Shown: positions 1-10,962 of the stretch, one piece after another
Layout: the number at the start of each line of letters is the position of its first letter
Numbering within the stretch: the stretch's first letter is position 1
DNA from: Nitrosopumilus maritimus SCM1
GTDB taxonomy: Archaea > Thermoproteota > Nitrososphaeria > Nitrososphaerales > Nitrosopumilaceae
NCBI RefSeq assembly: GCF_000018465.1
Contig: NC_010085.1
Location: 1,110,001 to 1,142,000 of the forward strand
Direction of reading: 5' to 3'
DNA length: 32,000 nt
Position numbers and translations under genes: made by a program
Notes under the pieces: model-generated
The model's input: only the letters and a program-made list of their open reading frames with translations
The model's database searches: none
What the model was told of the DNA's origin: nothing

Positions 1-718
1 CATGGTGTTGATATACTTGAGCATGCATTAGATAGCGTCCCAATCGATAGTTTTCAATTGAGTCTTTTCCTTTATCCTGAATGCAAATTCTTTGTTCGTC
101 TGTTTCAGTACTAGTTATAGTGTGGATTATTCTTGCTAAATCAAATTGTCCGTAAGCAACACCAATATGATATGAATCTCTTCGTAGATAATCCATCTTA
201 TCTACATCTAATGCACTTGAAATAACATCACTTGCCAGAGTACTCAATCCTGAATCCCAATCAGAAACAGGTTTGTGGTCTAACAGTTGGATTATTTTTT
301 GAGATTTATCACCTAAAATACTTTGAAGTTCAGGGTTTTTTGAAATGATCAACATAGAAATCCATTCATGATCAATTTTGTTTTCATTAACATTTGAGAT
401 TACGGATTCAAATAGATGAGAATAGGGTCCATGTCCAACATCATGAAGTAATGCAGCCAGTCTTACAATTTCTTTAGTAGTATCATCAAAATTCAATTGA
501 TCACATACTTTACCTGCAAGATGCGTAGCCCCAAGAGAGTGTTCAAATCTAGTATGAATTGCAGTTGGATAAACAACAAATGCATGAGATAGTTGTTTTA
601 TGTTCAACAATCGACGGAAGGGTGAAGAGTCAATCACCTGTTGTTCAGTTTTTGAAATATCTATAAAGCCATACAGAGGATCTCTAATGGATTTATACTT
701 AAAATCAATTTTTGACAA
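1..718 (-). CDS. HD-domain phosphohydrolase, SAMHD1/dGTPase-like (COG1078-type). About 239 N-terminal codons are in the window; the C-terminus lies beyond the window start
   Basis: Absent from the ORF track because it runs off the window. My minus-strand translation from TTG at 718 reads (M)SKIDFKYKSIRDPLYGFIDISKTEQQVIDSSPFRRLLNIKQLSHAFVVYPTAIHTRFEHSLGATHLAGKV..LAALLHDVGHGPYSHLFE..DVDKMDYLRRDSYHIGVAYGQFD..YQHH. It has the H...HD metal-binding motif and the D-x-D..YL-x-RD motif typical of this family. In-frame TAG and TGA codons immediately upstream force the TTG start, which overlaps the upstream gene by 14 nt. Confidence 0.8.
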   Translation of the reverse strand, partial: MSKIDFKYKSIRDPLYGFIDISKTEQQVIDSSPFRRLLNIKQLSHAFVVYPTAIHTRFEHSLGATHLAGKVCDQLNFDDTTKEIVRLAALLHDVGHGPYSHLFESVISNVNENKIDHEWISMLIISKNPELQSILGDKSQKIIQLLDHKPVSDWDSGLSTLASDVISSALDVDKMDYLRRDSYHIGVAYGQFDLARIIHTITSTETDEQRICIQDKGKDSIENYRLGRYLMHAQVYQHH

Positions 719-1259
719 TATTCACTAATTTTAATTCTTTAAGAAGTCCTACACCTTGAGATACATCATCAGGAGTAAGCTCCCAACCAAGTTTTTCTGC
801 AGTTTTTATTGCATCATCATAATCCATTACTTTTTCTTTATCAGGATTGTTTTCCAACATAAAATACATTTTTGCAGCATATGAAAGAGGTGCAGTTTTT
901 AATTTACAAAATTTATCACATGTAGATACCAAATATTTAATTTTTTGATATTCTGTAGGAAATGTAGATTTTACATGATTTGCCATATCTTGCCCATCAG
1001 GGGTTAAACGATACTTATAGCCCTCATGCATTTTTCCAGGAATTTTAATTTCATCAATAAAAGAATAGGTAACCATTTTTTCTAAAGCTAAACTAAGTTC
1101 TGGACTGTAAGGACCATAATAGTGAGGTTTGTAAACAGGGAGTGTAAGTCCTTCAATAGTTTTGTTTGAAAGGTATACTAGTTTATGGATCGCTGTTCGT
1201 CCAACAATTTCACCATTGTTTGAATCAAGTATTGATTCAACAGTTTCATAAACATCCAC
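705..1259 (-). CDS. Small partner protein of the HD hydrolase. Winged-helix-like, possibly DUF4065/SocA-Panacea-like or YwgA-like (tentative)
   Basis: 184-aa ORF with a GTG start, the first start codon after an in-frame TGA. The pattern GRTAIHKLVYLS..YYGPYSPEL..GYKYRLTPDG recalls DUF4065/Panacea-type proteins plus a wHTH wing; this assignment is from memory only. The 3' end overlaps the HD gene start, indicating an operon. Confidence 0.55.
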   Translation of the reverse strand: MDVYETVESILDSNNGEIVGRTAIHKLVYLSNKTIEGLTLPVYKPHYYGPYSPELSLALEKMVTYSFIDEIKIPGKMHEGYKYRLTPDGQDMANHVKSTFPTEYQKIKYLVSTCDKFCKLKTAPLSYAAKMYFMLENNPDKEKVMDYDDAIKTAEKLGWELTPDDVSQGVGLLKELKLVNIVKN

Positions 1260-1484
1260 AATACAACACCAACAAATTAATCAAATGTTCCACGTATATG
1301 ACATTTTTAAAAATATCTCAGATCTAAGTTGATTTGTTAATGATTTTAACTTGACACTTTCCAAAAACAAATTATTCAAGAGATAAAATTATCTGGAAAT
1401 AAATAAAACATGAGGTTATTATGGTATTACCTTTTAAGAATCAACTTTTTAGGAAGAAGTCTCCAACAGATAGGGATCTAAAAA

Positions 1485-2732
1485 TTGTATAAATTTGCAC
1501 ATGTTTCAGATATTCACCTAGGATTTCAAGACAAAAAAGAACTTCAAAAAATAGAACAAGAGGTATTTGAAGAAGTGGTTTGCACATGCATAAAACAAAA
1601 AGTAGATTTTGTGTTGATTACAGGTGATTTATTTCATAGAAACCTTCCAGAAATGAGAGTTCAAAGATTTGCATTTAAAAATTTCAAAAAACTTTATGAT
1701 GCAAAAATTCCAATTTATGTAGTATATGGCAGCCATGATTTTAGCCCTATAGAATACTCAGTGATAGATCTACTAACAGATGTGGGATACTTAACCAAAG
1801 TTTCAAAGGAACACACAAACAATGAAAAAACAGAATTAGATTTTACTGAAGACCCAAAAACAAAAGTGAAATTAGTAGGAATTTCAGGCAGAACAGCAGG
1901 AATAGATAAAGAAAATTATGAAAATTTGGAACTACCAGTACTAGATAATAGCTTTAAGATATTTTTGTTTCATATTGGTATTGATGAACTAAACTCTAGT
2001 TCAGAAATCGATACTAATTCAATACCCATAGAATCATTGCCAAAAGGATTCGACTATTATGCAGGAGGACATGTACATGTTTTCTCACACAAACAGGTTA
2101 AGAATTTAGGAGAAATATGTTATCCAGGAACCCCATTTGCAGGATATCATAGTGATTTAGAAGAAAACGCCAAGCAAGTTAAAAGAGGATTTGTAATAGT
2201 TGAGTTTGACAATAAAATTAAAAATGTAAAATTTTGTGAAATAAAAAAAACAGATTATGAGTTATTAGAATTTAATGCAAATGGAAAAACCGCAAATGCA
2301 TTAAACATAGAGATTTTAAAAAAAATATCACAAATCATACCCGAAAATAAAATAATATTATTAAAAGTACAAGGAGAATTGAAATCTGGAAAAACAACCG
2401 AAGTGAATTTTATAGAATTTAAAGAAAAATTATTACAGTCAGGAGCAAGAGAAGTTAATGTAAATAGAATTAATTTATTCTCAAAAAAATACCATATTGA
2501 AAAAATTGAAGCAGGGAAAAAAGAAGAGTTAGAAAATAAAATTTTTGAGGAAAATATTAAAAAAATCAAAACTGAGCAACCAGAACTAAGTGGCGAAAAA
2601 GGAATTCTTTTTGCAAAAGAATTACTCCAATTTTTAAAAGAACCAATAAACACAAATGAAAAGAAAATAGATTATCAAAAAAGAATTAGTGCAGCAGTTT
2701 TAGCAATGATGGGAATTGAAATGGAAAAATGA
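1485..2732 (+). CDS. Mre11/SbcD-like metallophosphoesterase nuclease, island-borne paralogue
   Basis: 415-aa ORF. The TTG start is forced by an in-frame TAA at 1479-1481. Calcineurin-type motifs occur in Mre11 order: HVSDIHLG (I), ITGDLFH (II), GSHD (III), LFHIG (IV), GGHVH (V). By eye it aligns with the canonical Mre11 at 30342 (VDFV..GD.FH). An ATGA stop/start overlap joins it to the next gene. Confidence 0.85.
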   Translation: MYKFAHVSDIHLGFQDKKELQKIEQEVFEEVVCTCIKQKVDFVLITGDLFHRNLPEMRVQRFAFKNFKKLYDAKIPIYVVYGSHDFSPIEYSVIDLLTDVGYLTKVSKEHTNNEKTELDFTEDPKTKVKLVGISGRTAGIDKENYENLELPVLDNSFKIFLFHIGIDELNSSSEIDTNSIPIESLPKGFDYYAGGHVHVFSHKQVKNLGEICYPGTPFAGYHSDLEENAKQVKRGFVIVEFDNKIKNVKFCEIKKTDYELLEFNANGKTANALNIEILKKISQIIPENKIILLKVQGELKSGKTTEVNFIEFKEKLLQSGAREVNVNRINLFSKKYHIEKIEAGKKEELENKIFEENIKKIKTEQPELSGEKGILFAKELLQFLKEPINTNEKKIDYQKRISAAVLAMMGIEMEK

Positions 2733-5149
2733 TTCTAAAGTCTATTCAATTAAACAATATCAGAAGTTACACTAATGAAATTATAGAATTTCCTCTTGGA
2801 ATTACACTATTTGAAGGGGATATTGGTTCAGGAAAATCCACAATTTTAATGGCAATCGAATTTAGTCTCTTTGGAATAGGCAACAACAAAGGAAACTCGT
2901 TATTAAAGACTAATGAAGATGAAGGATTTACTAAATTAGAATTTAGTGTAGAGGGTAAAAAATATGAAATATGTAGAAAATTAAAAAGAAAAAACAAATC
3001 AATAAGTCAGAATAGTGGATACATAATTGAAAATGAAAAAAAGACAACACTCTCAGCAACAGAATTAAAAAAACGCATTATTCAAATTTTAAAATTCAAT
3101 GAATCAAGTGAAAGTAGAGCACATAGCAGAATATTTCGATATGCAGTATATACACCACAAGAAGAAATGAAAATGATACTATCAGATTCAGAAAAACGTT
3201 TGGAAACAATTCGAAAGGCATTTGAAATGGATGCATACAAAAATGCAATTTTAAATTCAGATTTAATCGCCAATATTTTAGATAAAATTTCTGTAAGCCT
3301 AGAAACCACAGTACAAAACCTACAGAAAAAAGAAAAAGAATATTTTGAAACTCAAAAAGCTATTGCAAACGCACATAGGGATCAAAATGAATTATCAATG
3401 GAAATAAAAAATTTAGAAAAGAGGAAAGAATTCGTTGAAGAGAATTTAAATCAGTTAAAAAATAAAGAGAAAGATCTCATAAAATTTTATGAAGAGCAAA
3501 AACACATTATAGAAAAAATTAAAAAAACAGAAAAAGAAATCAAAGAAAAAAATGATGAAATTATAAAATATGAGAAAAAAATTGCATTGAATAAAAACAA
3601 TATTTCTAAATTAAAATCAATAAAAAAACCCACAACCATGTCAATAAAACAAATCGATACGAAAATAGAAAAATATCGAAGAGATGAAGATTTGTTAACA
3701 AATATAAAAATCAAAATAGAAAAAATGAATTCCAGATTAGATACGTTGTCAAAAATTCTTGGAAAAAATGAGAAAAATACGCCTAAAAAATTAGAACAGA
3801 GTATAAAAAATTTAGAAGAAAGTATAGAGATTGAAAAAAATCAATTAAAAAATATGGAAAAAAATAAGAATGAATTACTAAAAATTGAAACTCAATTAGA
3901 AGTACAAACAGAAGAAATTGAAAAAAGACTGAAAAAAATTTCAAAATTAGATTTTAAATGTCCCACTTGTGAGCAAATAATTGAAGAAAAATATGTTAAA
4001 AAAATTCAAAATGAAAATAAAAACCAATTATTAAAAAATAAAAAAATGATAGAAGAAATCATTAGTAAAAATAAATTTAATGAAGATTCGATTCTTGAAT
4101 TACAATCAAAAATTAGCAAAATTGAAGAATTATTAAAAAAATCAGTTTCACAAAGACCATACTTAGTAGAATATTTACAAATAAAAGAAAATCACAATGA
4201 AGAAATAATTCTAAAAAAGAAGTTAGAGAGAAAAATACAGCAAGAAAATAAATCTGAATTTAATGATCCTATAAAATATTATTTAGAACTTAATAATAAA
4301 TTACAAAATTATGAAAAAGCCAAAGAAGATATAAAAAAAATTACAGAGGAAAGTAGAGAATTTAGAATTAAAATTCTTACTTTAGAAAAAAATTTACGTA
4401 ATTCCAATAAAAAATTAGAAATTGATACAAGACGTCAAGATGAACTAAATAAGGAAATTTTATCTTTCAAAAATATTCAAAACGATATAAAAAAATATTC
4501 AAAATATGTAACTGAAGTTAATGACAAATATCTTCTAATAAATAAAAAAAGTGCGTCAATTGAAACTAGAAAAAAATTTCTTGACGATGAACTTCAAAAG
4601 ATAAAGATTGAAATAGAAAATTCAGAAATCGCGAAGAAAAAATACGACCGATGTAATAATTTTCATGAGTGGTTAAAAGGATTTTTCGTTCCAATTGTAG
4701 ATATAATGGAAGCAAAAATAATGCAATATCTTCAATATGATTTTAACAACATATATCAAAACTGGTATTCTATTTTGGTAGAAGATCCATCTAAAGAATC
4801 TAGAATAGATGATGATTTTACACCAATTGTAGAGCAAGAAGGGTATGAAATGGAAATACACCATTTAAGCGGAGGAGAAAAAACAAGTATTGCATTAGCA
4901 TATAGATTAACTTTAAACAGTATGTTAAGAAGAGAAACTGAAAGTTTAAAATCCAATTTATTGATTTTGGATGAACCAACATACGGGTTTAGCAAATCTC
5001 AGCTTTCAAAAGTCAAATCCATTCTAACAGAATTAAAATCAGAACAAATAATCCTAGTATCTCATGAAAAAGAATTAGAAGGATACGCACAAAATATTTT
5101 TCAAGTTACAAAAGAAAACGGAATATCTAAGATTTCTAGACTAAGTTAA
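2729..5149 (+). CDS. Rad50/SbcC-like SMC-family ATPase with a central zinc hook, island-borne paralogue
   Basis: 806 aa. Motifs: Walker A GDIGSGKST (aa 30-38), Q-loop YTPQEE, CPTC zinc hook at aa 411-414 (nt 3959-3970) in the middle of a long K/E/N-rich coiled coil, signature LSGGEKTS, Walker B LLILDEPT, H-loop VSHEKE. Confidence 0.88.
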   Translation: MILKSIQLNNIRSYTNEIIEFPLGITLFEGDIGSGKSTILMAIEFSLFGIGNNKGNSLLKTNEDEGFTKLEFSVEGKKYEICRKLKRKNKSISQNSGYIIENEKKTTLSATELKKRIIQILKFNESSESRAHSRIFRYAVYTPQEEMKMILSDSEKRLETIRKAFEMDAYKNAILNSDLIANILDKISVSLETTVQNLQKKEKEYFETQKAIANAHRDQNELSMEIKNLEKRKEFVEENLNQLKNKEKDLIKFYEEQKHIIEKIKKTEKEIKEKNDEIIKYEKKIALNKNNISKLKSIKKPTTMSIKQIDTKIEKYRRDEDLLTNIKIKIEKMNSRLDTLSKILGKNEKNTPKKLEQSIKNLEESIEIEKNQLKNMEKNKNELLKIETQLEVQTEEIEKRLKKISKLDFKCPTCEQIIEEKYVKKIQNENKNQLLKNKKMIEEIISKNKFNEDSILELQSKISKIEELLKKSVSQRPYLVEYLQIKENHNEEIILKKKLERKIQQENKSEFNDPIKYYLELNNKLQNYEKAKEDIKKITEESREFRIKILTLEKNLRNSNKKLEIDTRRQDELNKEILSFKNIQNDIKKYSKYVTEVNDKYLLINKKSASIETRKKFLDDELQKIKIEIENSEIAKKKYDRCNNFHEWLKGFFVPIVDIMEAKIMQYLQYDFNNIYQNWYSILVEDPSKESRIDDDFTPIVEQEGYEMEIHHLSGGEKTSIALAYRLTLNSMLRRETESLKSNLLILDEPTYGFSKSQLSKVKSILTELKSEQIILVSHEKELEGYAQNIFQVTKENGISKISRLS

Positions 5150-5219: not shown

Positions 5220-6212
5220 CTAGATGTTAGCGATGATTTTTTTTGCCAATTTTTCAAAATCAGCTTTACATTTAAGAGAATTCTCTTTATGAATTCCTAC
5301 GATTCCAGGTCCACTTAATTCAAAAATAGGTTTTTTCATTTGTTGAGATTTAGGAGCTAAACTGTGATAACTTTTAAAATTCCCTAATTTGTACGATCCA
5401 TTATTCAAATCAAGGACCATATTTTCATCAATTTCTCTTAATTTAGAAATGAGTTTTTCTTCTATAATTTGAGGTACTTGAGCAGACCAATGTTTCCATG
5501 CTTTGGTTTCAACGCCACGATAAATATTGAATTGTTGGTTGATGTAACCTGCAAAAACAGGTTTACCATCTTGAAGATCAATTGTCAATGATTCATTATT
5601 TTGAATAAATCGATTTTTTGCATTTGTCCAATCATCAATCCATTTTTTAAAAGTTATACCAATATTTTCTAATCCTCGAAGAGAAAATAAATCAGGTACA
5701 AGAGGTACAAAGAAATAATCACAAGATAACAACACAGAACGATTCAAACTTCCTAAGTTAGGTCCAACATCAACTAAAACATAGTCTATATCATTTGCAT
5801 TAGCAATTTTTTTGATCAACCTATAAATTGAAGACGTTCGTCTAAAACCAATTTCGTTACCTGCAAGAGTGTCAGTCCAAGCAGAAGAAAGTAATTCTTC
5901 AAAACCACTAAGAAGTAGATCACCTGCAATTAGACGTATTTCTCTATCTTTAACTTTGTATGGTTTAATATCAGCAATATCACCAGTACCTTTGATTAAA
6001 GGTTCAACTGCATAAAATACACTGTTTTGTGTTTTCCACAATGTATCAAGTTCATCATCAGTACAAATACACGACGTTAGATTACACTGTGGATCTAAAT
6101 CCACAAATAAAATTTTCTTCCCCATTTTCTCTAAGGCATAACCTAAATGAAACAAAAAAGTAGTTTTTCCAACACCGCCTTTATTATTGAATAAGACGAT
6201 ATTTTGAGCCAT
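5220..6212 (-). CDS. ParA/Soj-family ATPase with an extended C-terminal region
   Basis: 330 aa. Has the deviant Walker A NNKGGVGKTT, then VDLDPQCN, then Walker B-like DYVLVDVGPNLG. Roughly 100 aa follow the core ATPase. No ParB-like gene is adjacent. Confidence 0.85.
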   Translation of the reverse strand: MAQNIVLFNNKGGVGKTTFLFHLGYALEKMGKKILFVDLDPQCNLTSCICTDDELDTLWKTQNSVFYAVEPLIKGTGDIADIKPYKVKDREIRLIAGDLLLSGFEELLSSAWTDTLAGNEIGFRRTSSIYRLIKKIANANDIDYVLVDVGPNLGSLNRSVLLSCDYFFVPLVPDLFSLRGLENIGITFKKWIDDWTNAKNRFIQNNESLTIDLQDGKPVFAGYINQQFNIYRGVETKAWKHWSAQVPQIIEEKLISKLREIDENMVLDLNNGSYKLGNFKSYHSLAPKSQQMKKPIFELSGPGIVGIHKENSLKCKADFEKLAKKIIANI

Positions 6213-6445
6213 AAGACAGGTATTGTTATGAAACTAAAAGTTAAATCTGTTTGCCATAATACTATAAGAAAAACTATAGAATTCATACACATTAAAAATT
6301 AGATAGTGGGTTTGATTTTCTATATAAACAAAATTGATATAAATTGAGAAAACAAACAAAAATTAGAAAATAGACTATGTATTGACTGGAGTTCTACATA
6401 AAATACACACAAAGCATCTAATACAAATTTTGCACAAAATTCCAT

Positions 6446-6604
6446 ATGAGAGTTGATTCGTGCCGTAATTGTGGATATGTGTTAAATGTTCTAAAATACT
6501 GCAATGTATGTGCACAGCCTCTCCAGCTAAAGTGTTCACACTGCCTGAAATATGCCGATGATCCAATTCACTCTGTATGTGCTTCCAAGATTGCATTGTG
6601 CTAA
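6446..6604 (+). CDS. Small zinc-ribbon protein (52 aa), not listed in the ORF track
   Basis: My plus-strand translation is MRVDSCRNCGYVLNVLKYCNVCAQPLQLKCSHCLKYADDPIHSVCASKIALC*. It has three evenly spaced CxxC pairs (C6/C9, C19/C22, C30/C33) plus H42, C45 and C52. It is preceded by an AT-rich region shared divergently with parA. It competes with the listed 73-aa minus-strand ORF, which has no regular motif. Confidence 0.45.
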   Translation: MRVDSCRNCGYVLNVLKYCNVCAQPLQLKCSHCLKYADDPIHSVCASKIALC

Positions 6605-6611
6605 TTTTGCA

Positions 6612-7013
6612 TCATTTCAGCATATTCAGGCACGACTTGAAACCAGATTTACGGTTACGTCGTAGCAATTTCAGGACAGTATCAAATTTGGCAGAATCAA
6701 GGAATTTTTGAATTATACGAAGATCAGCAAAAGTGGTACGACCAGCATGAGAATTTATCTCATTAAACGACTTTGCAAACGAACCTGATTTGTAACGCCC
6801 TCTAGATTTTTTAAAAGCTGAAACTATTGCAACGCCAGCCAAACTACCACAAATAGATACAGTGTCATGAGATTCGATTTTAGAAAAGGATTCAGAAATT
6901 ACTTCTTTAGAGATTCTGTGAAATGCGTCACCATTGTTTTTTCTAGCAGAAATAATTTCAGAATAAATCACATCCACATATTCCAGTGAGCTATAAAACA
7001 ATCTGTCATTCAT
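6612..7013 (-). CDS. Hypothetical protein (133 aa), last gene of a three-gene overlapping operon
   Basis: The ORF start overlaps the end of the 500-aa gene by 8 nt. I recognise no motif. Confidence 0.6.
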   Translation of the reverse strand: MNDRLFYSSLEYVDVIYSEIISARKNNGDAFHRISKEVISESFSKIESHDTVSICGSLAGVAIVSAFKKSRGRYKSGSFAKSFNEINSHAGRTTFADLRIIQKFLDSAKFDTVLKLLRRNRKSGFKSCLNMLK

Positions 7014-8508
7014 GGCTGATTACTTTCAACAGGTTTTCTCGCAGTCGTTTTATGTCATAGGATATGGAATGTTTGTCAAATTCAGTTCCCTTTATTCCAA
7101 CATATATCTTGTCAAGGAGGGTTATGATTTGACCAATACTGGCAATGGGATCAAACTTTCCGTTGACAAGATCAAAGAGAGGTTTGAGAGATTCTAACTT
7201 TCCCAAAGTATGCTCTATTTTGTGTGAATGTTTCAGATGAGTTTCAAATGTATGAATTAATTCTTGCAGATATTCTTCATGTTGTTTTTGAATATGGTCA
7301 GCCTGAATCTTGTTTTGTTTTACAAGTTTGTTAATCTTATCTTCAGTATGAGATACGACAGAATTTAGTTCAGATTTTGCATGTTTTGAAATATCATTTA
7401 GATTGTTTTTTGCAAACTCTGTACCGTTTGAAATTTCTAATTTTATTTCATCATTGTGAGATTCAAGCCATAATTTTTTCTTCTCCAAAGACTCATTTTC
7501 TTTTTTGAGTTTAGAGTTAACAGAGTTGAGTTTCCTGAAGAGTTTTTTTGCATTTCCTGCCTTTTCCAGTTCTTCGAGAAATTCCTTAGGAGCCATCTCA
7601 AAACTATCAAAAATTTTCTGCCAAGAAATCAAGTCTTGTTCCAAAACGCCACTTTTCGTCAAATTTTCTACTGAGGAAATAGATTCAGCCATAGATTTGT
7701 GCCTAAGAAGTAGATTTTCGTGCTTAAGAGACAATTCCTTATACTTTTTTTCCAGATTTCCAGTCTTTTTCTCAACTTCATCTAGCTTTGACTGTTTCTC
7801 ATTCAATCTCAAATCGACTGATTCATCCTTACTCAGATAAGAAATGATCTTGGCAATATCATACTCTTGAGATTTTACATTCTGCAACACATTACATACA
7901 GAATCTGCATCAGACAAATCAAATCCAGATTTTTCTAGAAATTCTAAGGTTTGTGTTATTTTTTCAACCTGCTGTTCAGTAAGTTTGTTTTTCTTTAGTA
8001 ATGCAGACAGATTGTTTTGTGATTGTTTGTGTTGATCGGAGAGTTTGTCAATTGATAATTCCAATTCATTTTTGGTTTTTACTAGTTCTGTACAATGGTT
8101 TTCAATTTCATGTAACGGTACATCAGATTTTGATTGAATTTTAGAAATAGTATTGCATAATCCTACAAGATGTTCTGGAGAAAGTTCATTTTGTTTTGCC
8201 ATAGACAACACAGATTCTACAAACGAATGGATTTGTTTTGGATCAAGGTTGTGTTTTAAAAGTATTGAAAATACGACATGCCCATAAAATGCATCCTTTG
8301 GTTGCATTCCATTTTTTCTAATAATTTTAAAAAAGTCATGTATTGCATCAATTGTTTTTCTTTCAATCTTTGATGTAAAATCATTGATGTATTCAGATAT
8401 GGAACCAGTACTAACGCCAGTACTATCATGAATCTCTCGGACAGATTCACCCAAGAGGTATTTTTCAACTATATCATTACGGGTTTCATCAGAATATGGC
8501 TTTCTCAT
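7006..8508 (-). CDS. HTH-domain protein with a long coiled-coil region (500 aa), function unknown
   Basis: The N-terminus YSDETRNDIVEKYLLGESVREIHDSTGVSTGSISEYIN resembles a resolvase/transposase-type HTH. Residues ~130-440 are heptad-like and K/E/L/N-rich. An ATGA-type 4-nt overlap joins it to the upstream small gene. Confidence 0.75.
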   Translation of the reverse strand: MRKPYSDETRNDIVEKYLLGESVREIHDSTGVSTGSISEYINDFTSKIERKTIDAIHDFFKIIRKNGMQPKDAFYGHVVFSILLKHNLDPKQIHSFVESVLSMAKQNELSPEHLVGLCNTISKIQSKSDVPLHEIENHCTELVKTKNELELSIDKLSDQHKQSQNNLSALLKKNKLTEQQVEKITQTLEFLEKSGFDLSDADSVCNVLQNVKSQEYDIAKIISYLSKDESVDLRLNEKQSKLDEVEKKTGNLEKKYKELSLKHENLLLRHKSMAESISSVENLTKSGVLEQDLISWQKIFDSFEMAPKEFLEELEKAGNAKKLFRKLNSVNSKLKKENESLEKKKLWLESHNDEIKLEISNGTEFAKNNLNDISKHAKSELNSVVSHTEDKINKLVKQNKIQADHIQKQHEEYLQELIHTFETHLKHSHKIEHTLGKLESLKPLFDLVNGKFDPIASIGQIITLLDKIYVGIKGTEFDKHSISYDIKRLRENLLKVISHE

Positions 8509-8792
8509 AGGACAAATCCCCCACGTTCATTATCCTGTTCATTTTGTATAGTATGTTCATTGAAATTTTCAGAAAAGCCAGATGATTCATCAGAAATTCC
8601 AGATTGTTCATTTTGAAAATTTTTTTTATTATTTTCTATAATCTGCCTTCTAATGATGTATTTTGAAAAGCATTCTTTTTTGATACATACTGAACATACA
8701 TGATAGTCCTTTTCTGAACCAGATACGGAATAAGTGACAAGATAATCAGGTGTTTTTGAACAGCACTGAAGTTTTTGAACCATACATACCAT
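8505..8792 (-). CDS. Small Cys-rich, putative zinc-binding protein with an acidic/polar tail
   Basis: The track ORF starts at TTG 8816. I prefer ATG 8792 (MVCMVQKLQCCSKTPDYLV..HVCSVCIKKE) because a TATATTTA element on the minus strand (8826-8833) lies ~35 nt upstream of it. CC..CxxC cysteines are present. Confidence 0.55.
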   Translation of the reverse strand: MVCMVQKLQCCSKTPDYLVTYSVSGSEKDYHVCSVCIKKECFSKYIIRRQIIENNKKNFQNEQSGISDESSGFSENFNEHTIQNEQDNERGGFVL

Positions 8793-8836
8793 AAGGAACA
8801 GAAGGTTTATAGACAAACTGTGAACTAAATATAGGT

Positions 8837-9916
8837 ATGATTTCTACAGATAATTTAATTTCTGAACTAAATATAGTAAAAAGATCTTCTAGAAAAACCT
8901 TGCTTCCAAAAGAAGAGGACATAGTTGAAGAGGCAATACTAAACACATTATCCAGAGAAGGCACATTATCATTAACAAAACTAGTGAAAACCATAGAAAA
9001 CTATGGAGACTGGGAGGCCAAACGAAATTCAATCAAAAGAAGAATTGACGGACAAGAAAAATATCTGAGCTTACTTGATTATGAATTCATAAAAGAGAGA
9101 AAACCTGAAAAAAGAAGACCAGGTAAATATGGCAAAGAGTATTGTCTAACAACAAAAGGATTTTTGGCATCACTTGCAACAAAACACATATCATTTGATA
9201 GAACATACCTGTTCAAAAAATACATTACATTTCTTGATAACTACTTGGATGATAAAATAAAAAATGTTGGAGAAGAAGCTGGTTTTGATTCTACATTAGA
9301 TATTGAGACAAAAAACATGTTACTTGATGTTATTACTAATTACATAAAGAGTCAGATAACAGTTTTCTTGATTTGGCATGAGGCAAATGAAACATCAATT
9401 AGAATGAGAAAAAGTATGAAAGAGTATATTGAAGATTTCATCTTAACACATAGTGAATACATTCATCAAGAATTTCCGATGATGCTTGATAAAAAACGAG
9501 AAGAAGAATATCGTCAGGCATTAAGGAAATACTTTGAATATTCCAAAATACTACACTCGTTAATGGAATCACCAGTAGAAGACATACATTCAAAAAAAAT
9601 CAACATTAAATTAAATATGATCAGTTCATTTGTATTCAAATGGCATTTGTATTTTGATGAATTACAAATGAAAAATCCTATTGGTAATGATTATGACATT
9701 TGGAATACACATGCAGGGGTTTTATCGCGTCCAGAATATGGAATTGACATAGAATACGAAGGAACATTTGGACATAAAAGAAAAATTCAGCCAGATCTTA
9801 AATCAGAAACAGAAAAGAAAATACAACAAATTCTAAAAAAGAAAATTCCAATTACGGATATTTGGAGAAAACGAATGAGGAGAGAAGAGATAGGTAATGA
9901 CTGGCTTTATGCATGA
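8837..9916 (+). CDS. Hypothetical protein (359 aa), possible N-terminal winged helix
   Basis: Long ORF with an ATG start. The N-terminal segment EEAILNTLSREGTLSLTKLVKTIENYG is wHTH-like. I recognise no catalytic motif. The 3' end overlaps the integrase 3' end by 10 nt in convergent orientation. Confidence 0.7.
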   Translation: MISTDNLISELNIVKRSSRKTLLPKEEDIVEEAILNTLSREGTLSLTKLVKTIENYGDWEAKRNSIKRRIDGQEKYLSLLDYEFIKERKPEKRRPGKYGKEYCLTTKGFLASLATKHISFDRTYLFKKYITFLDNYLDDKIKNVGEEAGFDSTLDIETKNMLLDVITNYIKSQITVFLIWHEANETSIRMRKSMKEYIEDFILTHSEYIHQEFPMMLDKKREEEYRQALRKYFEYSKILHSLMESPVEDIHSKKINIKLNMISSFVFKWHLYFDELQMKNPIGNDYDIWNTHAGVLSRPEYGIDIEYEGTFGHKRKIQPDLKSETEKKIQQILKKKIPITDIWRKRMRREEIGNDWLYA

Positions 9917-10962
9917 TTTAGTTGCACATGCTCCATTCTGAGCTTGTCCTGCCACAACTCGTCTACCTTGGTTCTATAGTGCTCAAGTTCTGACTTTTCT
10001 CGCTCTAGTTGCTTGATTTTGAGCCTCTGGCGCTCTGAATCATCAATCATCAGTTCCACTATTGCCTTGCGAAACTCTGCAAAGCACTGTTCGCGCGTTG
10101 GCTTTAGGTACACGCCATCAAGTCCGTTCTTGTGTCCAAGTAGTTTTTCTGCAACATTAGAGTTTACGCTGTTTTTGAGTTTGAGTATGGTATTGAATCG
10201 CTTTCTAAAGCCATGATCCATCTGAGTATCAAAGTGATGATTTACTTTGGTTCGCTCCAATCCTGCGTTGTTAATCACCCTATACATGACAGAAATCACT
10301 CCGCTTCTCTGCATCGGAAGTACTTTTTTTCCGCGAGAATAGTCTCGTCGGAATACTGGAGAATTATCAGTGAGTTCCTCACCCTTTTGTCTTCGTTCCT
10401 CATGGTATTCATCTAGTGCCTGTGTTGCCTCTGGAGTCAGAAACGCCCAGTATTCCTCGTTGTCATTAGGATACAACAGTACGGCCTTGCATCCTTCTGG
10501 CATGTCATGAATGTACTTTAGAGTAAAGTTGCCATCAATTACTCCGATTCTTGCACCAGTTGATGCCAAGAAATGAATTATTGCACGATTCCTCTTTGAA
10601 GTAGTTGCTGCAAGCATCTTTTGGATTTTCTCTGTAGTCCAAGGCTTGAATCCGGCAGACTTTATCTTTGGAGGATACATCTTGCGGATAATATCCCAGT
10701 AGAGTGGAATCCTGTTCATTACAAAAAAGTGCCTTACACCAAGAAATAGAATTGGAATGGAATTTGGATGTCTGTTCTCTTTAAGATGGATTAGATAGTC
10801 TTCAACTAGTGTCTGGATTTCCTCAACTGGCTTTGCAATCAATCCATCAAAGGAATCAAACTCTGCAAAGTTTCTAAAGTTTTTTAGGTGGTCGCGGTAA
10901 TTGTTTAGCGTCTGACGAGATTTTATTCCCTGCTCAAATCGTAGAATTGACCTTTCTTTCAT
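9907..10962 (-). CDS. Tyrosine recombinase/integrase (XerC/D-like, apparently intact) with a C-terminal coiled-coil tail
   Basis: 351 aa. The catalytic signature is in the expected order: STGARIG (Arg), HGFRKRF (His-x-x-Arg), LLGHKNG (His), DGVYLKP (Tyr). The N-terminus has a SAM-like core-binding region. The tail ERQRLKIKQLEREKSELEHYRTKVDELW looks like coiled coil. Confidence 0.88.
   Translation of the reverse strand: MKERSILRFEQGIKSRQTLNNYRDHLKNFRNFAEFDSFDGLIAKPVEEIQTLVEDYLIHLKENRHPNSIPILFLGVRHFFVMNRIPLYWDIIRKMYPPKIKSAGFKPWTTEKIQKMLAATTSKRNRAIIHFLASTGARIGVIDGNFTLKYIHDMPEGCKAVLLYPNDNEEYWAFLTPEATQALDEYHEERRQKGEELTDNSPVFRRDYSRGKKVLPMQRSGVISVMYRVINNAGLERTKVNHHFDTQMDHGFRKRFNTILKLKNSVNSNVAEKLLGHKNGLDGVYLKPTREQCFAEFRKAIVELMIDDSERQRLKIKQLEREKSELEHYRTKVDELWQDKLRMEHVQLNHA

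What the first reader, a model, noticed from the sequence alone, without database searches (positions are those of the whole stretch)
1..1259. Overlapping two-gene module: small winged-helix partner plus SAMHD1/dGTPase-like HD hydrolase
A 184-aa protein (705-1259) is followed by an HD phosphohydrolase. The HD gene's only possible start (TTG 718, forced by in-frame TAG/TGA) lies 14 nt inside the upstream gene, implying tight co-translation. The HD protein carries the full SAMHD1/dGTPase-type signature (RFEHSLG, LLHDVGHGPYSH, DKMDYLRRDS). dNTP-depleting dGTPases and SAMHD1 are established antiviral effectors. The upstream partner has a pattern (HKLVYLS..YYGPYSPEL) that I recall from DUF4065/SocA-Panacea antitoxin-like domains and from YwgA-type partners of bacterial HD proteins. 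An upstream regulator or antitoxin-like protein followed by a nucleotide-hydrolysing effector, on an integrase-bounded island, fits a nucleotide-depletion defence or a toxin-antitoxin-like module.
Basis: partly seen in the sequence, partly recalled or inferred. Interest (0 to 1): 0.66.

Follow-up and report, generated by a model that had tools for sequence, protein, structure and literature searches.

The report
YwgA-like partner plus SAMHD1-type HD hydrolase
A Nitrosopumilus genome carries a translationally coupled gene pair, widely conserved in archaea and bacteria: a SAMHD1-like nucleotide-degrading enzyme and a small protein whose fold matches an antitoxin domain and which probably keeps the enzyme in check, though this has never been tested.

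Summary
On the minus strand, a 184-aa gene (705-1259) overlaps by 14 nt the TTG start (718) of an HD gene. The HD gene runs off the window; its full length is 434 aa, recovered from an identical contig.

- **HD protein:** a SAMHD1/EF1143-type (COG1078, YwfO/YdhJ) enzyme with all catalytic motifs.
- **Partner:** belongs to the uncharacterised "YwgA" family and has no Pfam model. By profile, HH-suite and Foldseek it is homologous to the toxin-binding C-terminal domain of DarG, the superfamily that includes Panacea/DUF4065.
- **Linkage:** near-obligate. Of 72 informative genome loci chosen by the partner alone, 66 have the HD gene adjacent and 3 more carry HD remnants. The order is partner→HD in archaea and HD→partner in bacteria, usually overlapping.
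- **Reciprocal test:** all 17 close full-length HD relatives carry the partner. A more distant HD clade (about 48 loci) has none.
- **Decay pattern:** the HD gene is often damaged (IS insertions, truncations) while the partner stays intact.

Defence or toxin-antitoxin function is plausible but unproven. In Bacillaceae the pair (ywfO-ywgA) sits in core synteny. The "integrase-bounded island" could not be delimited. Kurata et al. 2022 already list PanA+YdhJ pairs as untested candidates. I file this as a new member of a known, uncharacterised kind.

The parts
705..1259 (-). Partner gene, 184 aa, GTG start. YwgA-family protein: an N-terminal winged-helix-like module, a helical bundle and a small C-terminal HTH. 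It is homologous to the DarG C-terminal (toxin-binding) domain, i.e. the Panacea superfamily.
   Evidence: ORF. AF2 model has pLDDT 92.9 and pTM 0.90. The A1 profile against PDB hits 7yk3_B at 6.9e-7. hhalign gives probability 96.2%, E 2.4e-9. Foldseek PDB top hits are 7yk3_B/D with probability 1.0 and TM 0.63. PADLOC DarG gives 7e-8 and NCBIfam DarG 6e-6, both restricted to the C-terminal part of the model. There is no Pfam hit. Homologues are named 'YwgA' by JGI.
1..718 (-). 5' part (first 239 of 434 codons) of the HD gene: a SAMHD1/EF1143-type (COG1078, YwfO/YdhJ) predicted dNTP triphosphohydrolase. It has a TTG start, and the gene continues beyond the window start.
   Evidence: Translation. 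Full gene from identical contig L001:10542-11846. Pfam HD 8.5e-13 plus HD_assoc_2. PDB phmmer: 2hek 4.4e-47, 2q14 7.9e-41, SAMHD1 about 4e-35, EF1143 (2o6i) 9.9e-33.
705..718 (-). 14-nt overlap between the partner's 3' end (stop codon 705-707) and the HD start (TTG 718-716). This is a translational-coupling arrangement.
   Evidence: for the in-frame stop and start map. The same overlap is called on L001-L006. Comparable overlaps occur in related loci.

Best explanation
This is an ancient two-gene module.

The downstream gene encodes a SAMHD1/EF1143-type HD enzyme, most likely a dNTP triphosphohydrolase. This is inferred from homology and an intact catalytic site.

The upstream gene encodes a YwgA-family protein of the DarG-C-terminal-domain/Panacea superfamily, a fold whose characterised members work by binding a cognate enzyme. 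The most likely mechanism is as follows:
1. The two proteins are made in fixed proportion from one transcript through translational coupling. The gene arrangement is shown; coupling is inferred.
2. The partner binds the HD enzyme directly and restrains or gates its activity, in the manner of an antitoxin (inferred).
3. Loss, titration or degradation of the partner then unleashes dNTP hydrolysis and stalls DNA synthesis of the cell or of an invading virus (inferred).

Whether a given lineage uses this for antiviral defence, for growth control or for routine dNTP-pool homeostasis is open. The pair is in variable, IS-rich or defence-gene contexts in archaea but in core synteny in Bacillaceae.

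Confidence is about 0.9 for the identity of both components and their obligate linkage. It is about 0.5 for the inhibitory, protein-binding mechanism, and that is the figure given.
For: Identity of the components: HD; partner similar to the DarG C-terminal domain; PMC13621843 (DUF4065 proteins are homologous to the DarG C-terminal inhibitor domain).

Linkage, starting from the partner:
- 80 genome loci were picked by the partner alone, and 72 are informative.
- 66 have an adjacent HD gene and 3 more have HD C-terminal remnants.
- No third conserved gene exists.

Linkage, starting from the HD gene:
- Among HD-picked metagenome loci, all 17 full-length close relatives carry the partner.
- About 48 loci of a more distant HD clade carry none.

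TA-like features:
- Tight overlaps occur in both gene orders.
- The HD gene is damaged with the partner intact in about 13 of 72 loci. These include IS4 and IS66 insertions and truncations to about 30 codons.
- No HD gene without a partner was found among the 17 close relatives (Fisher p=0.066).
- Some genomes carry two copies (L013+L026, L037+L057).
- Flanking synteny is absent among Nitrosopumilaceae.
- In Methanoperedens-type loci the pair sits inside a DUF499/DUF1156-methylase/SNF2 cluster.

Against DNA binding: the helix at the 'recognition helix' position is hydrophobic or acidic with no conserved basic residues, and the protein is mildly acidic (pI 5.85).

Precedents: Kurata et al. list PanA plus a YdhJ HD protein as candidate TA family T34, untested. 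In Clover, a dNTPase is restrained by its operon partner (PMC12265719).
Against: - No physical interaction, toxicity or enzymatic activity has been shown for any member. I found no paper on YwgA function.
- The partner fails Pfam's Panacea model, so the antitoxin analogy rests on superfamily-level homology.
- In Priestia/Bacillus the pair lies between rsfA/ywzC and ywhB/ywhC/ponA/speE in a core chromosomal region. This fits a housekeeping regulator as well as it fits an inhibitor.
- The pair is essentially absent from phages and plasmids. The single plasmid hit looks chromosomal.
- The decay asymmetry is not statistically significant and relies partly on MAGs, where frameshifts may be assembly errors.
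- Thaumarchaeal HD proteins have lost two SAMHD1 allosteric-site residues, so their regulation may differ in unknown ways.
Confidence: 0.5

Rival explanations
1. Housekeeping dNTP-pool enzyme with a non-inhibitory accessory subunit. The partner would activate, stabilise, oligomerise or localise the HD dNTPase, for example to DNA or the replisome, as part of normal nucleotide homeostasis. There would be no toxin-antitoxin or defence logic.
For: The pair has a core syntenic position in Bacillaceae. COG1078 enzymes are regarded as dNTP-pool regulators (PMC3190883 abstract), and a YwfO homologue is retained in the minimal genome Syn3.0 (PMC4993169). The pair shows broad, largely lineage-consistent gene order, with archaea one way and bacteria the other. 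It is absent from phages.
Against: The distribution is patchy: 235 matches among 185,579 species genomes with the motif used. Flanking synteny is absent in Nitrosopumilaceae. Some genomes carry multiple copies. The HD gene decays repeatedly while the partner is kept. The partner's only characterised relatives are inhibitors or adaptors of toxins.
Confidence: 0.25
2. The partner is a winged-helix DNA-binding transcription factor that autoregulates the operon. The linkage would reflect regulation at the DNA level rather than protein-protein binding.
For: The AF2 model contains a wHTH-like module. Weaker Foldseek hits are MarR/PadR/HucR repressors (E 0.1-0.6). Weak Pfam hits to HARE-HTH, HTH_12 and MCM_C wHTH occur in the C-terminal part of relatives. 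Many type II antitoxins also autoregulate, so this role could coexist with inhibition.
Against: The helix at the recognition-helix position lacks conserved basic residues, and the protein is acidic to neutral. TM-scores to MarR/PadR are only 0.2-0.37, against 0.63 for the DarG C-terminal domain. In the published structure title cited in PMC13621843, the DarG C-terminal domain acts as an ssDNA mimic that binds protein rather than as a DNA binder. In bacteria the partner is the downstream gene, overlapping the HD stop, which is atypical for a dedicated repressor.
Confidence: 0.12
3. The HD enzyme acts on something other than dNTPs, such as nucleic-acid ends, NTPs, modified nucleotides or a signalling nucleotide. 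The partner would then deliver or mimic a nucleic-acid substrate.
For: The closest solved relatives (2hek, 2q14, 9mr6) are structural-genomics entries without an assigned activity. SAMHD1 itself binds oligonucleotides at its allosteric sites (PMC7854603 abstract). The thaumarchaeal proteins have altered allosteric-site-1 residues. Danchin proposed that YwfO acts on modified triphosphates or RNA 5' ends (PMC4993169).
Against: All SAMHD1 catalytic and substrate-pocket motifs are conserved: RFEH, HD..H....H, D..DY..RD and YQH. EF1143, at E 1e-32, is a proven dNTPase (PMC3190883).
Confidence: 0.08

Closest known systems
Bacillus ywfO-ywgA gene pair (COG1078 HD protein plus 'uncharacterized protein YwgA')
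   Same: Same two protein families, adjacent and co-directional. The Priestia YwgA homologue aligns over 90% of the query (28% identity, E 2e-9) next to an HD gene. JGI names archaeal homologues YwgA.
   Different: Gene order is reversed: HD→partner in bacteria, partner→HD here. In Bacillaceae the pair is in core synteny, whereas here it is in a non-syntenic, low-GC neighbourhood. Neither version has been characterised.
PanAT (Panacea/DUF4065 antitoxin plus diverse toxins), specifically the untested candidate pT33/T34 'YdhJ HD domain-containing protein' in Kurata et al. 2022 (PMC8832971, Dataset)
   Same: A small non-enzymatic protein of the same superfamily, paired and overlapping with a COG1078 HD protein. 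PanA antitoxins neutralise their toxins by complex formation.
   Different: This partner and its relatives do not reach Pfam PF13274. The best sub-threshold hit is E 2.6e-4, in 4 of 29 relatives. The listed examples are Clostridia in T|A order, and none was tested. The HD enzyme is much larger (434 aa) than typical TA toxins.
DarG antitoxin C-terminal domain (PDB 7YK3, M. tuberculosis DarTG)
   Same: Best sequence-profile and structural match: 6.9e-7, HH probability 96%, Foldseek probability 1.0, TM 0.63. The QKLxY and YGPYS motifs are shared. That domain binds and inhibits its cognate enzyme.
   Different: There is no macrodomain, and the neighbour is an HD hydrolase rather than the DarT ADP-ribosyltransferase. 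Identity is only 16-20%.
SAMHD1 / EF1143 dNTP triphosphohydrolases
   Same: The catalytic HD quartet and substrate-pocket motifs are conserved. E-values are 1e-35 to 1e-32 over most of the length.
   Different: There is no SAM domain. The allosteric-site-1 residues Q142 and R145 are replaced by R and L in this Nitrosopumilaceae clade. Those enzymes have no dedicated protein partner.
Clover (CloA dNTPase plus CloB) and single-gene anti-phage dGTPases
   Same: Nucleotide-depleting HD effectors. In Clover an operon partner restrains the dNTPase in uninfected cells (PMC12265719).
   Different: CloB is a nucleotidyltransferase that makes an inhibitory nucleotide, whereas the partner here has no enzymatic motifs. 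The HD protein scores far below the curated anti-phage dGTPase models (24 vs 400 bits).

Membership tests
SAMHD1/EF1143-type HD dNTP triphosphohydrolase (COG1078, YwfO/YdhJ; Pfam HD + HD_assoc_2) | Metal-binding H...HD...D quartet and the flanking motifs RFEHS, HDxGHxPxSH and DxDKxDYxxRD | tested here: met
   RFEHSLG, LLHDVGHGPYSH and DVDKMDYLRRDS are present in the window translation. They align column for column with SAMHD1, 2hek and 2q14.
SAMHD1/EF1143-type HD dNTP triphosphohydrolase (COG1078, YwfO/YdhJ; Pfam HD + HD_assoc_2) | Significant similarity to solved members beyond the HD core, including the HD-associated region | tested here: met
   2hek 4.4e-47, 2q14 7.9e-41, SAMHD1 about 4e-35 and EF1143 9.9e-33 over residues 9-347. 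PF19276 HD_assoc_2 is recorded for the full product. In the window fragment alone it scores 21.3 bits, below the 23.1 cut-off, because the gene is truncated.
SAMHD1/EF1143-type HD dNTP triphosphohydrolase (COG1078, YwfO/YdhJ; Pfam HD + HD_assoc_2) | Guanine-nucleotide allosteric site 1 residues (SAMHD1 D137, Q142, R145) | tested here: not met
   D is kept but Q142→R and R145→L (VIDSSPFRRLLNIKQL). This change is confined to the Nitrosopumilaceae clade; other partner-linked and partner-free HD proteins keep QRLR.
SAMHD1/EF1143-type HD dNTP triphosphohydrolase (COG1078, YwfO/YdhJ; Pfam HD + HD_assoc_2) | Hydrolysis of dNTP to deoxynucleoside plus triphosphate | not testable with these tools
   This needs a biochemical assay.
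Pfam SocA_Panacea (PF13274, DUF4065) / PanA antitoxins | Match to the Pfam model at its gathering threshold | tested here: not met
   The window protein gives no hit even at E≤10. Of 29 relatives, 4 give weak hits, best E 2.6e-4. None of 10 further bacterial and archaeal relatives hits at E<0.1. The precomputed Pfam column is empty for the 120 listed homologues.
Pfam SocA_Panacea (PF13274, DUF4065) / PanA antitoxins | Superfamily-level homology (shared fold with the DarG C-terminal domain, which DUF4065 proteins also match) | tested here: met
   hmmsearch A1 against 7yk3_B gives 6.9e-7. hhalign gives 96.2%. Foldseek gives probability 1.0 and TM 0.63. PMC13621843 states that DUF4065 proteins are homologous to that domain.
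Pfam SocA_Panacea (PF13274, DUF4065) / PanA antitoxins | Conserved bicistronic, usually overlapping arrangement with a cognate effector gene | tested here: met
   66 of 72 informative loci have the HD gene adjacent and 3 more have remnants. Overlaps or gaps of ≤13 nt are typical.
Pfam SocA_Panacea (PF13274, DUF4065) / PanA antitoxins | Neutralises the toxicity of the neighbouring gene product by complex formation | not testable with these tools
   This needs toxicity and rescue assays and pull-down.
DarG antitoxin (DarTG) | N-terminal macrodomain (ADP-ribosyl glycohydrolase) | tested here: not met
   The protein is 184 aa. Matches cover only positions 173-302/329 and 183-315/338 of the DarG models. 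The score is 25.8 bits against a cut-off of 250.
DarG antitoxin (DarTG) | Adjacent DarT ADP-ribosyltransferase | tested here: not met
   The neighbour is an HD hydrolase.
YwgA family (COG name used by JGI/IMG) | Homology to Bacillus-type YwgA encoded next to ywfO | tested here: met
   tblastn to Priestia megaterium gives 28% identity, 90% coverage and E 2e-9. The matched gene is a 169-aa hypothetical protein directly after an HD gene in the ywf/ywh region. JGI labels many homologues 'uncharacterized protein YwgA'.
Anti-phage dGTPase (Dgt-type; NCBIfam NF041026, PADLOC dGTPase) | Score above the curated family cut-off | tested here: not met
   NF041026 scores 24 bits against a cut-off of 400. 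The TIGR01353 dGTP_triPase model scores 37.7 against 152. The PADLOC dGTPase match (7e-12) covers the HD core only, residues 25-110. These figures are for the 239-aa fragment; the full protein was not rescanned.

The most novel reading that the evidence does not exclude
The YwgA-HD pair is a large family of protein-gated nucleotide-depletion modules shared by archaea and bacteria (over 3,400 clusters at 50% identity). In this reading, a Panacea-like protein holds a SAMHD1-type dNTPase inactive until infection or stress removes it. That would make it a toxin-antitoxin or abortive-infection system with an unusually large enzymatic 'toxin'. It would also be, as far as I know, an early example of a nucleotide-depletion defence in ammonia-oxidising archaea. 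Partner-like proteins in archaeal viruses, such as SSV4 A8TKI0, would then be candidate counter-defences.
Probability: 0.3. Interest if true: 0.7.

Novelty: new member of a known kind. Interest (0 to 1): 0.45.

Why it matters
How prokaryotic SAMHD1 homologues are kept from depleting the cell's own dNTPs is largely unknown outside a few systems, such as allosteric nucleotides and CloB in Clover.

This analysis shows that one whole subfamily of COG1078 enzymes, from Nitrosopumilus to Bacillus, is tied almost without exception to a small protein of the DarG-CTD/Panacea fold. That gives a concrete, testable candidate for a protein regulator.

If the partner is an inhibitor, the pair links toxin-antitoxin biology, dNTP homeostasis and antiviral nucleotide depletion. 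It would also assign a function to the YwgA family, which currently has no Pfam model and is annotated as hypothetical. If it is only a housekeeping accessory subunit, the finding is of modest annotation value.

Tried and rejected
1. Pfam, NCBIfam and PDB searches with the single partner sequence gave no Pfam or PDB hit and only weak, far-below-cut-off matches to the C-terminal part of DarG models. A family profile was needed.
2. A search for att-type direct repeats around the integrase and the pair found only short chance-like repeats. Look-ups of the flanking geranylgeranyl reductase returned only the same strain context, so there is no empty site and the island ends are undefined.
3. I tested whether partner-linked HD proteins are marked by loss of the SAMHD1 allosteric residues Q142/R145. 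This is rejected: the change is limited to Nitrosopumilaceae.
4. I tested whether a special C-terminal domain marks partner-linked HD proteins as a docking site. A C-terminal HMM separated the groups, but by eye the partner-free proteins have a similar C-terminal segment. The result is not reliable and was dropped.
5. A search for a third conserved gene found none. The next 'family' is an antisense ORF artefact inside the HD gene.
6. On mobile elements: phages gave no hit. The only plasmid hit is a 410-kb Priestia replicon with chromosomal ywf/ywh synteny. IMG/VR gave 4 weak loci, 3 of them with an HD gene.
7. The weak PADLOC LmuC hit and the adjacent Rad50-like gene raised the idea that the partner serves the neighbouring SMC-like protein. 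This is rejected because the partner is linked to the HD gene, not to Rad50, in all other genomes.
8. Literature searches for YwgA, YwfO and COG1078 found no functional study.
Full report
**Observation**

The two genes are on the minus strand. The partner ORF is 705..1259(-), 184 aa, with a GTG start. In the HD reading frame there are stops at 751, 733, 727 (TAG) and 724 (TGA), then TTG at 718. The next in-frame start is GTG at 637, which would remove the conserved RDPLYGFIDIS N-terminus. The TTG start and the 14-nt overlap with the partner's stop (705-707) are therefore real.

The window holds only the first 239 codons of the HD gene. A contig identical to window 1-1484 (0 mismatches) gives the whole 434-aa gene (L001:10542-11846).

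**The HD protein**

- Pfam HD scores 8.5e-13, and HD_assoc_2 is also found.
- phmmer against PDB gives 2hek 4.4e-47, 2q14 7.9e-41, 9mr6 7e-36, human and other SAMHD1 about 4e-35, and EF1143 (2o6i) 9.9e-33.
- The alignments show conservation of RFEH, HDxGHGPxSH, DVDKxDYxxRD and YQH.
- It is therefore a COG1078 (YwfO/YdhJ) SAMHD1/EF1143-type enzyme. dNTP triphosphohydrolase activity is inferred, not shown.
- It scores far below the curated Dgt-type anti-phage dGTPase models (24 vs 400 bits).
- In this Nitrosopumilaceae clade the SAMHD1 allosteric-site-1 residues Q142 and R145 are replaced by R and L/H/Q. Other HD proteins examined keep QRLR.

**The partner protein**

On its own the sequence hits nothing in Pfam, even at E≤10, and nothing meaningful in PDB. 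Two libraries gave weak hits to the C-terminal part of DarG models: NCBIfam at 6e-6 and PADLOC at 7e-8.

A database search found 42 homologues, all about 180 aa. A 29-sequence alignment (A1) shows invariant K25, Y28, H45, Y47, G48, P49, L84 and T85. With the A1 profile:

- The profile hits PDB 7yk3_B, the C-terminal DarT-binding domain of M. tuberculosis DarG, at 6.9e-7.
- hhalign gives 96.2% probability, E 2.4e-9.
- The AF2 model is confident (pLDDT 92.9, pTM 0.90). Its only strong Foldseek PDB matches are 7yk3_B/D (probability 1.0, TM 0.63).
- MarR/PadR-type winged-helix repressors follow at E 0.1-0.6 and TM 0.2-0.37.

PMC13621843 states that DUF4065 proteins are homologous to this DarG inhibitor domain. 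The partner therefore belongs to the DarG-CTD/Panacea superfamily.

It is not a member of Pfam SocA_Panacea. Only 4 of 29 relatives give sub-threshold hits, best 2.6e-4. Ten further relatives give none, and the precomputed Pfam column is empty for the 120 homologues listed.

It is the 'YwgA' family. JGI uses that name for many homologues. A tblastn hit in Priestia megaterium (28% identity, 90% coverage, 2e-9) is the 169-aa hypothetical gene directly after an HD gene in the classical ywf/ywh region: rsfA, ywzC-like, HD, YwgA-like, ywhB-like tautomerase, site-2 protease, YwhD, PBP1A, speE, speB.

The family is large. A full HMMER scan found 3,467 clusters at 50% identity with E≤1e-3 and 1,144 with E≤1e-10, nearly all 170-200 aa.

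**Linkage, starting from the partner**

A scan of one genome per species with a partner motif gave 235 confirmed stretches, and 80 loci were kept. tblastn with the HD protein plus ORF mapping showed two arrangements:

- **Archaea** (Nitrosopumilaceae, Methanomicrobiales, Methanoperedens, Methanosarcinales, Bathyarchaeia): partner→HD, with overlaps of 1-29 nt or gaps of 3-13 nt.
- **Bacteria** (Planctomycetota, Verrucomicrobiota, Acidobacteriota, Bacillota, Ignavibacteria and others): HD→partner, mostly with a 4-nt ATGA overlap.

Eight loci are uninformative because the partner lies at a contig edge. Of the 72 informative loci:

- 66 have the HD gene adjacent.
- L058, L059 and L084 carry recognisable C-terminal remnants of an HD gene just upstream.
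- L007, L015 and L029 (Nitrosopumilaceae) have none.

No third gene is conserved. After the partner (80 loci) and HD (68 loci), the next cluster is an antisense artefact.

**Linkage, starting from the HD gene**

Of 80 metagenome loci picked by the HD protein, all 17 whose HD protein aligns over its full length (32-69% identity) carry the partner, as do several weaker ones. About 48 loci of a more distant clade, which aligns over residues 10-236 only, have none. The partner therefore defines a subfamily of COG1078 enzymes.

**Signals bearing on function**

1. The HD gene is often damaged while the partner ORF is intact.
   - It is truncated to about 30 codons in L008 and L016.
   - It is split by an IS4-type transposase in L018 and by an IS66-type transposase in L026.
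   - It is frameshifted or split in L014, L048 and L076.
   - Only remnants are left in L058, L059 and L084.
   - It is absent in L007, L015 and L029; in L007 the partner also carries an internal stop.
   - This amounts to about 13 of 72 loci, against 0 of 17 HD genes without a partner. The difference is suggestive only (Fisher p=0.066), and MAG errors may inflate the frameshift cases.
2. Some genomes carry two copies (OZ241884.1: L013+L026; a Methanoperedens bin: L037+L057).
3. Nitrosopumilaceae loci share no flanking synteny with the window.
4. In Methanoperedens-type loci the pair sits between DUF499/DUF7680 and a DUF1156 methylase plus an SNF2 helicase, which is a restriction-modification-like defence cluster.
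5. The helix at the recognition-helix position is hydrophobic or acidic with no conserved basic residue, and the protein is mildly acidic (pI 5.85, family median 6.2). This argues against a classical DNA-binding repressor.
6. Against a purely mobile or defence reading:
   - There is no hit in 50,697 phage records.
   - The only 'plasmid' hit has chromosomal synteny.
   - In Bacillaceae the pair is core.

**Context in the window**

Upstream of the partner, and divergently transcribed, lie a Mre11-like gene and a Rad50-like gene.

- Both score far below the curated cut-offs (95 vs 600 and 129 vs 700 bits).
- The Rad50-like protein hits PADLOC LmuB at 5.8e-21.
- GC content there is 21-26%.

Next come a ParA gene, several unknown ORFs and a XerA-like integrase (9907-10962, minus strand). 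Core genes follow: geranylgeranyl reductase and CDC48.

This looks like an integrated element. However, no att repeat was found, and only same-strain contexts were recovered. Whether the pair belongs to the element cannot be decided, so 'integrase-bounded' is not established.

**Literature**

I found no functional work on YwgA or YwfO. Kurata et al. 2022 (PMC8832971) list, in a supplementary dataset, PanA paired with 'HD domain-containing protein / YdhJ' as candidate family pT33/T34. The listed examples are Clostridia in T|A order with overlaps of -4, 0 and -17, and they are marked 'notest'.

The idea of a Panacea-type partner for this HD family is therefore already on record as an untested prediction. 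Clover (PMC12265719) shows that a dNTPase effector can be restrained by its operon partner, there through an inhibitory nucleotide.

**Interpretation**

- **Shown:** the identities of the two families, their near-obligate and translationally coupled linkage across two domains of life, and the decay pattern.
- **Inferred:** the HD enzyme is a dNTPase. The partner binds it directly and restrains it, by analogy with the DarG C-terminal domain and PanA. Release of the partner causes dNTP depletion.

I put about 0.5 on the inhibitory-binding mechanism. I put 0.25 on a non-inhibitory housekeeping accessory subunit, 0.12 on a DNA-binding autoregulator and 0.08 on a non-dNTP substrate. A dedicated antiviral or TA role gets about 0.3.

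**Verdict**

This is a new member of a known but experimentally uncharacterised kind: the ywfO-ywgA pair, equivalent to the PanAT candidate T34. Interest is moderate (0.45). The main value is a concrete, testable candidate for a protein regulator of prokaryotic SAMHD1 homologues.

Noticed in passing
window 1485-5149 (+), with 5220-10962: A Mre11-like gene (415 aa) and a Rad50-like gene (806 aa, CPTC zinc hook) score far below the curated archaeal Mre11/Rad50 cut-offs. The Rad50-like protein hits PADLOC LmuB (5.8e-21) and mad3. GC is only 21-26% against about 34-39% in the flanks. With the ParA gene, four unknown ORFs and a XerA-like integrase this looks like an integrated element, but its ends were not found.
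   Followed up: partly
window 604-654 (-), HD residues about 22-38; loci L009-L018, L092-L094: Nitrosopumilaceae HD proteins replace the SAMHD1 allosteric-site-1 residues Q142 and R145 (motif FRRL[L/H/Q] instead of FQRLR). All other partner-linked and partner-free HD proteins examined keep QRLR. Nucleotide activation may therefore differ in this clade.
   Followed up: partly
L018:7335-8492 and L026:7180-8607: In two Nitrosopumilaceae genomes the HD gene is interrupted by an IS4-type and an IS66-type transposase respectively, while the upstream partner ORF is intact. In L008 and L016 only about 30 HD codons remain after an intact partner.
   Followed up: yes
L037, L052, L057, L062 (Methanoperedens-type loci): The partner-HD pair is embedded between DUF499 and DUF7680 genes on one side and a DUF1156 N6-adenine methylase plus an SNF2 helicase on the other. 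This is a restriction-modification-like defence gene cluster.
   Followed up: partly
partner model m33b5ebbaf9f8 vs BFVD: The best viral structural match is an uncharacterised protein of Sulfolobus spindle-shaped virus 4 (A8TKI0, 159 aa; probability 1.0, TM 0.53/0.60, rmsd 2.9 Å, 23% identity). It could be a virus-borne orphan partner-like protein.
   Followed up: no
L029:5998-6543 and 8429-8848; OZ241884.1 (L013 + L026); Methanoperedens MFD12032 bin13 (L037 + L057): Some genomes carry two copies of the partner or of the whole pair. In the Cenarchaeum locus L029, two partner copies flank a 523-aa ORF and no HD gene is left.
   Followed up: partly
L014, L062, L076, L082: Gene order and similarity disagree with the taxonomic label of the MAG. 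There is an archaeal-type partner→HD pair in contigs labelled Gammaproteobacteria, Ignavibacteria and Planctomycetia, and a bacterial-type HD→partner pair in a Methanoperedens contig. The cause is either horizontal transfer or mis-binning.
   Followed up: no
window 1304-1313: An A/T palindrome, TTTTTAAAAA, lies 45-54 nt upstream of the partner's GTG start in the 225-nt divergent intergenic region shared with the Mre11-like gene. It is a possible TATA box or operator, read by eye only.
   Followed up: no
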